Shown here: positions 20,642 through 21,229 of the stretch, one piece after another
How positions within the stretch are numbered: position 1 is the first letter of the stretch
How the letters are laid out: each line of letters begins with the position of its first letter
Assembly: GCF_009914755.1 (NCBI RefSeq)
Contig: NC_060927.1
Source: the human T2T-CHM13v2.0 reference genome, Homo sapiens
Direction: 5' to 3' (one strand)
DNA length: 64,000 nucleotides
Program-made: the position numbers and the translations under genes
The notes under the pieces: model-generated
What the model was told of the DNA's origin: nothing
Databases searched by the model: none
Seen by the model: the letters and a program-made list of their open reading frames with translations, nothing else

Positions 20642-20949
20642 GTGTGTGTGTGTGTGTGTGTGTGTGTGACTGAGTTTCACTCTTGTCTTCCAGGCTGGAG
20701 TACAATGGCGTGATCTTGGCTCACTTCAATCTCCAGCTCCCGAGTTCAAGCGATTCTCCTGCCTCAGACTCCTGAGTAGCTGGGATTACAGGCGCCTGCC
20801 ACCATGCCCAGCTAATTTTTGTAATATTTAGTAGAGACGGGGTTTCACCATGTTGGCCAGGCTGGTTTCGAACTCCTGACCTCAGGTGATCCACCCGCCT
20901 CAGCCTCCCAAAGTGGTGGGATTACAGGCGTGAGCCACCACACCCAGCC
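20642..20949 (-). mobile_element. Alu (AluS-like) whose tail has become a (TG)n microsatellite
   Basis: A (TG)n run at 20642-20668 is directly followed by an antisense Alu body. Confidence 0.9.
20694..20713 (+). CDS. ZKSCAN7: Candidate Alu-derived alternative terminal exon of ZKSCAN7 (coding part GWSTMA*)
   Basis: Acceptor tttcactcttgtcttccag| at 20693. Joined to the phase-1 KRAB donor at 6169 it reads G|GC TGG AGT ACA ATG GCG TGA. An ATTAAA follows at 21164-21169. This fits my recollection of a short finger-less ZKSCAN7 isoform. Confidence 0.6.
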
Positions 20950-21229
20950 TATTCTTTTTAAGTTTCTTGATGTAGTGGCAGTAGTCTTGTGCTCTTCAGG
21001 AGAGTGTCCCGAGTTCTACGTCCCACATCAACTGAGGGTGTGAACTTGTGGAGGACTTTTGTCTGAATCTCTTTTTCAATCTCTATACAATGTGGCGGAG
21101 TTGTGCCACCTACATGAGCCAATGGAGAAGAAAGCTCCTGGTATACTTTAAGTACTCAACAATATTAAATACTGAATATTTGTCAATTGACGAAGTACTT
21201 CAAAAGCTTGATTCTCAGACTCCTTCTTA

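What the first reader, a model, noticed from the sequence alone, without database searches (positions are those of the whole stretch)
20642..21200. Alu exonisation may create a finger-less SCAN-KRAB ZKSCAN7 isoform, with a (TG)n tract at the acceptor
Seen: the antisense Alu has tcttgtcttccag where other Alus in the window read tcttgttgcccag, which improves the pyrimidine tract. Splicing from the KRAB donor at 6169 gives ...MASL-GWSTMA*, and ATTAAA follows at 21164. This route skips all 13 fingers and places the MPRIP retrocopy antisense within the intron. The Alu tail is replaced by (TG)n about 25 nt upstream of the AG. Established: antisense Alus supply 3' splice sites, UG repeats bind TDP-43 and CELF proteins, and SCAN domains dimerise. 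Inference: a primate-specific, possibly TDP-43- or repeat-length-tuned switch between a DNA-binding factor and a SCAN-dimerising decoy.
Basis: partly seen in the sequence, partly recalled or inferred. Interest (0 to 1): 0.7.

Follow-up and report, generated by a model that had tools for sequence, protein, structure and literature searches.

The report
TDP-43-guarded Alu last exon in ZKSCAN7
A jumping-gene (Alu) copy behind the human gene ZKSCAN7 serves as a rarely used final exon that cuts off all or most of the protein's DNA-binding fingers and switches on when the ALS-linked protein TDP-43 is lost, likely because the Alu's tail has turned into a TG repeat that TDP-43 would bind; whether the short protein does anything is untested.

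Summary
An antisense Alu (20669-20949) supplies the acceptor at 20694 of a 512-nt last exon that RefSeq already lists; its tail is (TG)13, ending 23 nt before the AG. The TDP-43 guess is borne out by supplementary tables of two papers from one group: the exon is cryptic in 3 of 10 knockdown datasets, and both junctions are listed as cryptic, 6169->20694 as early-responsive. It is not disease-selective in bulk brain or cord (AUC 0.47-0.53). That TDP-43 acts through this tract is inferred; a second TG tract behind the normal poly(A) site is a rival. The 'primate-specific decoy' is weaker: the KRAB has lost the KAP1-critical Glu17, use in controls is under 5-10%, and finger-skipping ZKSCAN7 models in horse, cheetah, sheep, colugo and owl monkey splice to ZNF660 exons instead, so the Alu likely intercepts an older read-through. 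Possibly new: the U-tract that hnRNP C guards is replaced by a TDP-43 motif; about 470 Alus have such tails.

The parts
6043..6169 (+). KRAB-A exon of ZKSCAN7; its donor (6169) is joined to 20694 in the finger-less form. Degenerate KRAB (Glu17 to Lys)
   Evidence: Pfam KRAB 49.4 bits; residue tally; junction hg38 44568433-44582972 in PMC12667841 supplement
7658..9894 (+). Normal last exon, 13 C2H2 fingers, stop 9109-9111, AATAAA at 9872; internal donor at 8401 after finger 5
   Evidence: junction hg38 44570665-44582972
10083..10123 (+). (TG)20 tract (imperfect to 10179), about 190 nt past the normal 3' end; rival TDP-43 site
   Evidence: role inferred
15007..19127 (-). MPRIP retrocopy with 10-nt target-site duplication (15007 and 19118), inside the skipped interval; its poly(A) tail, read as poly(T), forms the acceptor of another annotated exon (15038-15389)
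20642..20668 (+). (GT)13G microsatellite in place of the Alu tail; 28 of the 100 nt before the acceptor are covered by TDP-43 YG hexamers (0 at 10 other acceptors tested)
   Evidence: hexamer list from PMC12586162 supplement
20669..20949 (-). Alu body, antisense to ZKSCAN7 (AluS-type by recalled diagnostic positions); target-site remnant at 20637-20641 and 20950-20959
20667..20693 (+). Likely branch-point region (TGAC/CTGAG, A at -25 or -21, inferred), pyrimidine tract and AG (20692-20693); longest T run in the 60 nt before the acceptor is 3
20694..21205 (+). Alternative last exon, 512 nt, half Alu; coding part 20694-20713; other listed 3' ends map to 21028 and 21167
   Evidence: RefSeq table in the finding; PMC12586162 Suppl. 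Table 2
21164..21169 (+). ATTAAA poly(A) signal, 36 nt before the annotated end; only 4 genomic A at the end
23827..23935 (+). ZNF660 exon 2; acceptor used by ZKSCAN7 models of horse, sheep and cheetah
31736..31785 (+). Start of ZNF660 exon 3; acceptor used by 5-finger ZKSCAN7 models of owl monkey and colugo

Best explanation
This is a minor, Alu-derived last exon downstream of ZKSCAN7 that rises when TDP-43 is knocked down, likely because TDP-43 normally sits on the (UG)13 tract that replaced the Alu tail and covers the branch-point region, and its truncated products are likely by-products rather than a selected decoy. Steps: (1) shown: the Alu gives an improved AG acceptor and a poly(A) signal follows; (2) shown in published tables: donors 6169 and 8401 are both spliced to it, rarely in controls and more on TDP-43 loss; (3) inferred: some polymerases pass the normal poly(A) site, as they do towards ZNF660 in other mammals, and the Alu acceptor, 3.1 kb before ZNF660 exon 2, captures that splice; (4) inferred: with the U-tract gone, hnRNP C cannot guard this Alu and TDP-43 has taken over; (5) predicted: the stop lies in the last exon, so the RNA escapes NMD and would give SCAN plus a KAP1-blind KRAB (276 aa) or a 5-finger form (523/524 aa) at the expense of the 13-finger factor.
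For: Exon listed among 227 cryptic events, hg38 44582972-44583483, cryptic in 3 of 10 datasets, the three deepest knockdowns (log2FC -3.6 to -4.0). Both junctions listed as cryptic; donors are 2232 nt apart as are 6169 and 8401; 6169->20694 seen in i3 lower motor neurons and the dose-response series, class 'Early'. YG hexamers upstream of this acceptor only, 1 of 11 acceptors tested, including three other antisense Alus in the same skipped interval. UG motifs just upstream of acceptors are typical of TDP-43 cryptic last exons and of early events. Both splice routes match the two scenarios for downstream Alu exons in PMC4666398. Macaque models carry both junctions (P0005, P0102). Non-primate and New World monkey models use ZNF660 exons from the same donors.
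Against: iCLIP flags at exon start and end are 0 (column legend not read; 24 of the 35 ALE rows I saw also have 0 at the start). Not cryptic in 7 of 10 datasets, including all 4 cortical i3 sets and the Klim motor set. No ZKSCAN7 hit in 7 supplementary files of PMC12586192; no cluster for this junction among the 6 ZKSCAN7 rows of an independent cortical-neuron LeafCutter file, which was cut when stored. Both positive papers share a group and the neuroblastoma data. The table labels the event 3'Shortening, not ALE. Not selective for TDP-43 pathology in tissue: samples with 2 or more reads, control vs TDP-43, cord 3/153 vs 16/704, motor cortex 5/89 vs 26/445, FTD cortex 6/130 vs 1/70, RiMOD 4/27 vs 4/20. 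No effect sizes seen. No minigene or binding test exists here.
Confidence: 0.6

Rival explanations
1. TDP-43 acts at the (TG)20 tract about 190 nt past the normal poly(A) site, where it would promote cleavage; on its loss more transcripts run on and the Alu acceptor is used by default. The Alu-tail tract is a bystander or a helper.
For: Tract at 10083-10123. TDP-43 bound just downstream of proximal poly(A) sites enhances their use, shown with an ELK1 reporter. Mutating the poly(A) signal raises downstream Alu exon use.
Against: Three other antisense Alus without TG tails lie nearer (11890, 13356, 14742) and none is listed as an exon or among the 8 ZKSCAN7 junction rows. No ZKSCAN7 3' extension event is listed (1 ZKSCAN7 row in the workbook). 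The two routes can act together.
Confidence: 0.2
2. One reading: a selected, regulated switch from a DNA-binding factor to a SCAN-dimerising decoy that sequesters ZKSCAN7 or partners such as ZNF24.
For: SCAN domain intact in the short form (Pfam 139.7 bits); SCAN mediates oligomerisation (passages); both junctions modelled in macaques; finger-less forms recur across mammals, which could reflect an old function; negative-regulator isoforms are common among transcription factors (passages).
Against: Use under 5-10% in the control cells tested. The C-terminal tails differ between species and the human stop is read as Arg in macaque models, so no conserved tail. No protein-level or interaction evidence found; ZKSCAN7 is not named in the main text of PMC11014633 or PMC6745500. 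The cross-species forms are database models.
Confidence: 0.12
3. The response is indirect: deep knockdown changes another UG- or U-binding factor (CELF, hnRNP) or 3'-end processing in general.
For: No iCLIP flag; seen mainly in the deepest neuroblastoma knockdowns; absent from two other groups' tables as far as searched.
Against: The junction is classed early-responsive, i.e. it appears at mild knockdown, and is also seen in i3 motor neurons; a perfect UG tract lies at the acceptor.
Confidence: 0.08

Closest known systems
Intergenic Alu exons that create new transcript ends (Tajnik et al. 2015, PMC4666398)
   Same: Antisense Alu beyond the normal poly(A) site (10.8 kb; their range 41 bp to 21.4 kb); both routes occur, skipping of the last exon and a cryptic donor inside it; new poly(A) signal downstream; minor isoform.
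   Different: Those are repressed by hnRNP C on the tail U-tract; here the U-tract is gone (longest T run 3) and the published repressor is TDP-43. hnRNP C response of this exon is unknown; ZKSCAN7 was not found in 2 of 3 supplementary files.
TDP-43 cryptic last exons (Bryce-Smith et al. 2025, PMC12586162; STMN2, ARHGAP32)
   Same: Listed in their set of 227; low control use, rise on knockdown, UG run just upstream of the acceptor.
   Different: Annotated rather than novel, labelled 3'Shortening, cryptic in 3 of 10 datasets, no iCLIP flag, not disease-selective; Alu origin not noted in the rows or sections read.
crypTEs, TDP-43-dependent transposon-derived exons (preprint PMC12803201)
   Same: A transposon supplies exon sequence on TDP-43 loss.
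   Different: This exon was not found in 12 of 15 supplementary files searched; the main text has no 'UG repeat' match and 2 'Alu' matches, so a tail-microsatellite route is not described in what I saw.
Microsatellites born in Alu poly(A) tails (review PMC3812793)
   Same: Dinucleotide repeat at the 3' end of the element.
   Different: The passages read do not link such repeats to splicing control.
Finger-less SCAN or KRAB isoforms and SCAN-only proteins (ZNF197 VHLaK, ZNF397, ZNF202, MZF1 short forms, SCAND1; all recalled, not from a call)
   Same: Effector/dimer domain without DNA-binding fingers.
   Different: No function shown for the ZKSCAN7 form; its KRAB is predicted not to bind KAP1.

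Membership tests
Intergenic Alu last exon (PMC4666398) | Antisense Alu supplies the 3' splice site | tested here: met
Intergenic Alu last exon (PMC4666398) | Lies downstream of the gene's genuine poly(A) site and is joined to donors in the gene | tested here: met
   AATAAA 9872, end 9894; junction rows
Intergenic Alu last exon (PMC4666398) | Continuous U-tract at the tail, bound by hnRNP C | tested here: not met
   Longest T run in the 60 nt before the acceptor is 3; linker U5 remains. Two of the 20 other Alu sites are as poor or nearly so for other reasons (runs of 3-4 at 4 sites).
Intergenic Alu last exon (PMC4666398) | De-repressed on HNRNPC knockdown | tested here: inconclusive
   No hit in 2 supplementary files, file 1 not searchable
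TDP-43 cryptic last exon / cryptic junction | Low use in controls (<5-10%) and >10% on TDP-43 knockdown | tested here: met
   Read from published tables: 3 of 10 datasets; both junctions listed. Not recomputed from reads.
TDP-43 cryptic last exon / cryptic junction | UG-rich motif at the acceptor | tested here: met
TDP-43 cryptic last exon / cryptic junction | Direct TDP-43 binding at the site | tested here: inconclusive
   iCLIP flags 0/0; 24 of 35 ALE rows seen also 0 at start
TDP-43 cryptic last exon / cryptic junction | Selective for TDP-43 proteinopathy in post-mortem tissue (biomarker subset) | tested here: not met
   AUC 0.47-0.53 for 6169->20694, 0.43-0.51 for 8401->20694
KAP1-recruiting (standard) KRAB repressor domain | KAP1-critical residues incl. 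Val9, Phe13, Glu17, Tyr29 | tested here: not met
   6 of 12 kept, Glu17 to Lys; ZKSCAN1 control 11 of 12, a marsupial ZNF263 control 6 of 12 with Glu17 kept; 0 of 16 anchored orthologue models keep Glu17 (4 of 20 not anchored, 3 of the 16 shifted by indels)
SCAN-only dominant-negative isoform | Intact SCAN domain without fingers | tested here: met
SCAN-only dominant-negative isoform | Stable protein that dimerises with and inhibits full-length partners | not testable with these tools
   Needs proteomics, co-IP and occupancy assays

The most novel reading that the evidence does not exclude
When an Alu poly(A) tail decays into a (CA)n microsatellite, an antisense copy swaps its guard from hnRNP C to TDP-43. 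About 470 TG-tailed Alus in this genome would form a primate-specific, length-polymorphic reservoir of TDP-43 cryptic exons, and ZKSCAN7 is the worked example: the Alu captured an older read-through splice to ZNF660, and repeat length sets how early TDP-43 loss converts a 13-finger factor into a SCAN-only sponge.
Probability: 0.25. Interest if true: 0.75.

Novelty: new variant of a known kind. Interest (0 to 1): 0.5.

Why it matters
The exon is annotated and its TDP-43 response already sits in supplementary tables, so the event is not new. What I did not find in print is the link between its Alu origin, the tail microsatellite and the change of repressor. If general, this gives a concrete origin for some human-specific TDP-43 cryptic exons, a list of a few hundred loci to test, and a route by which common repeat-length variation could tune sensitivity to TDP-43 loss. 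As a biomarker this exon is poor, and a decoy role is unproven.

Tried and rejected
Literature searches for ZKSCAN7 (51 papers, 40 listed) and ZNF167 (19 of 19 listed) showed no title or abstract start on this isoform; a search for SCAN isoforms lacking fingers gave 0 papers. No hit in supplements of PMC4666398 (2 files; file 1 unsearchable) or PMC12586192 (7 files). PMC12803201 supplements: ZKSCAN7 rows concern other junctions or the antisense RNA; 3 of 15 files not searched, 2 cut. Supplements of PMC11014633, PMC6745500 and PMC10547255 were not searched and may bear on isoform function and KAP1 binding. The multiple alignment was uninformative and was replaced by an anchored tally. The bacterial promoter scan is irrelevant. 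Three homologue searches gave no separate human or ape 276-aa cluster and no New World monkey model with the Alu tail; clusters are at 90%, so this does not date the insertion beyond 'shared with Old World monkey models'. Rejected: an internal-priming artefact for the 3' end (4 A only); the idea that only 8401 responds to TDP-43 (first rows; overturned); NMD as the fate (stop in last exon; NMD columns blank). No fold or complex was predicted: a SCAN dimer would pass by likeness to solved structures. No splice-strength model was available; pyrimidine counts were used. Earlier scan notes were not available.

Full report
What is there. The stretch 20642-21205 holds, on the ZKSCAN7 strand, a perfect (GT)13G run (20642-20668), an antisense Alu body (20669-20949) and 256 nt of non-Alu sequence with ATTAAA at 21164. 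A 5-nt remnant of the target-site duplication flanks the TG run and the far end of the Alu, where it continues as T5-AA, so the microsatellite stands where the poly(A) tail was; birth of dinucleotide repeats in Alu tails is described in PMC3812793 (passages read). Only one other AG lies within 40 nt upstream and the longest T run in 60 nt is 3.

Products. With the SCAN exon from upstream (141 codons; Pfam SCAN 139.7 bits), 6169->20694 gives 276 aa and no fingers; 8401->20694, from a donor inside the finger exon that RefSeq also lists, gives 523/524 aa with 5 of 13 fingers; both stop at 20711-20713 in the last exon, so NMD escape is predicted. The KRAB scores above the Pfam cut-off but keeps 6 of 12 residues named as needed for KAP1 silencing in PMC9753469 (section 8 read), with Lys at Glu17; a ZKSCAN1 control keeps 11 of 12, a marsupial ZNF263 control 6 of 12 with Glu17, and none of 16 anchored orthologue models has Glu17 (4 of 20 not anchored, 3 of 16 shifted by indels). 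The short form is therefore predicted to be SCAN plus a KAP1-blind KRAB. Passages of PMC6745500, PMC10547255 and PMC9538788 support SCAN oligomerisation and weak KAP1 binding in old SCAN-KRAB proteins but do not test ZKSCAN7.

Is it used, and does TDP-43 control it? PMC12586162 (abstract, Results part 1 of 3, sections 26, 29, 40, supplement file 2 part 1, file 4 parts 1-2; legends sheet not read) lists a ZKSCAN7 last exon at hg38 44582972-44583483, the same 512 nt, among 227 cryptic events: annotated, labelled 3'Shortening, cryptic (control use under 10%, rise over 10 points) in 3 of 10 datasets, which are the three deepest knockdowns, all neuroblastoma lines; iCLIP flags 0 and 0. PMC12667841 (preprint; passages, sections 8-9, all 8 ZKSCAN7 rows of supplement file 2) lists two cryptic junctions into 44582972, from 44568433 and 44570665. 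These donors are 2232 nt apart, exactly as 6169 and 8401, and share one offset to the window. The first was detected in i3 lower motor neurons and the dose-response series and is classed Early in the first two sensitivity columns; the second in i3 motor neurons only. Its Results use PSI under 5% in controls and over 10% on knockdown, while its Methods add 'unannotated', a mismatch I could not resolve. Against: both papers share a group and datasets; 7 of 10 datasets did not call it; no hit in PMC12586192 supplements (7 files, only searched); no such cluster among 6 ZKSCAN7 rows of the cut LeafCutter file of PMC12803201. In tissue the 6169 junction has 2 or more reads in 3/153 vs 16/704 cord, 5/89 vs 26/445 motor cortex, 6/130 vs 1/70 FTD cortex and 4/27 vs 4/20 RiMOD samples (control vs TDP-43 pathology), AUC 0.47-0.53: real, rare, not selective.

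Mechanism. Of 11 acceptors tested, only this one has TDP-43 YG hexamers in the 100 nt upstream (28 nt), including three antisense Alus in the same skipped interval that are not listed as exons. The nearest branch-point-like A residues (-25, -21; recalled consensus) abut the end of the tract. I infer that TDP-43 on the tract blocks branch-point and U2AF access. PMC4666398 (abstract, Results parts 1-2 of 3, two supplementary files searched without a hit) describes exactly the two routes seen here for Alu exons beyond a gene's end, repressed by hnRNP C on the tail U-tract; that tract is absent here, so the guard has likely changed. The main rival site is a (TG)20 run 190 nt past the normal 3' end, where TDP-43 could promote cleavage as shown for ELK1; both may act.

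Evolution. Among 103 homologue models, two macaque clusters end in the Alu exon: P0005 (279 aa, finger-less, 11 members, tail maps to 20693-20740, Arg where human has the stop, consistent with CpG decay) and P0102 (5 fingers, 8 members). Horse, sheep and cheetah models splice instead to ZNF660 exon 2 (23827), owl monkey and colugo models from the 8401-equivalent donor to ZNF660 exon 3 (31736); pangolin and rhinoceros tails map to 24859 and 26591. These joins are also in frame in human, and a LeafCutter row labels the 23935->31736 junction with ZKSCAN7 as well. These are database models, possibly guided by cross-species alignment. The inference is that finger-skipping read-through is older than the Alu, which intercepts it 3.1 kb before ZNF660 exon 2; the differing tails argue against a conserved C-terminus.

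How general. A pattern of 8 TG units next to the Alu right-arm end gives 401 forward and 236 reverse matches, against 1 for the reversed control; 24 of the 100 listed rows are forward-strand double counts, so about 470 distinct loci (twice 236), a lower bound (537 rows not listed). I could not cross these with knockdown tables. Searches joining TDP-43, Alu, UG repeat, microsatellite and hnRNP C (2 papers; PMC5959245 passages treat the two repressors as separate) and TDP-43 with transposon exonisation (4 papers, 3 listed; PMC12803201 passages) did not show this link; the library lacks most subscription papers.

Variation. The hg38 interval 8401-20694 is 14 nt longer than in this assembly; where is unknown. 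The cluster lies on a differentiated haplotype (PMC6685493 passages) and the window's protein differs from the database human protein at 2 of 753 positions. Repeat-length tuning is untested.

Verdict. Real, annotated, minor, TDP-43-repressed Alu last exon; action through the tail-derived UG tract likely (about 0.6-0.7); decoy function unproven (about 0.12). Interest 0.5, carried by the testable class hypothesis rather than by the isoform.

Noticed in passing
window 15007-15389 and 19118-19127: The poly(A) tail of the antisense MPRIP retrocopy reads as a T-tract plus AG and is the acceptor of another annotated ZKSCAN7 exon (15038-15389); from 6169 it gives a second finger-less product (stop 15103-15105). 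The 10-nt target-site duplication shows the retrocopy spans about 15017-19117, wider than the annotated 15163-19037.
   Followed up: partly
window 23827-23935, 24859-24960, 26591-26653, 31736-31785: ZKSCAN7 models of horse, sheep, cheetah, owl monkey, colugo, pangolin and rhinoceros end in sequence matching ZNF660 exons or intron; a bat model (P0014) joins ZKSCAN7 SCAN to ZNF660 fingers. ZNF660 has no effector domain of its own in the window annotation, so read-through could supply one.
   Followed up: partly
window 10083-10179: Long TG/TA-rich tract 190 nt past the normal ZKSCAN7 3' end; candidate TDP-43 site for poly(A) choice.
   Followed up: partly
window 7656-7660: Tandem CAG-CAG acceptor (7658/7661) gives forms differing by one Ala; both annotated.
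   Followed up: no
window 6170-6189: Read-through of the KRAB donor stops after 6 codons (6187-6189), also 276 aa; goat and rat short models end in a similar intron-read tail (P0037, P0074).
   Followed up: no
window 8401-20694: hg38 is 14 nt longer than this assembly in this interval; two coding differences (positions 482 and 745 of the 753-aa form) from the database human protein.
   Followed up: no
window 58026-58084 and 63465-63495: Further long TG and CA tracts within the ZNF660-ZNF197 read-through span and ZNF197 intron 1.
   Followed up: no
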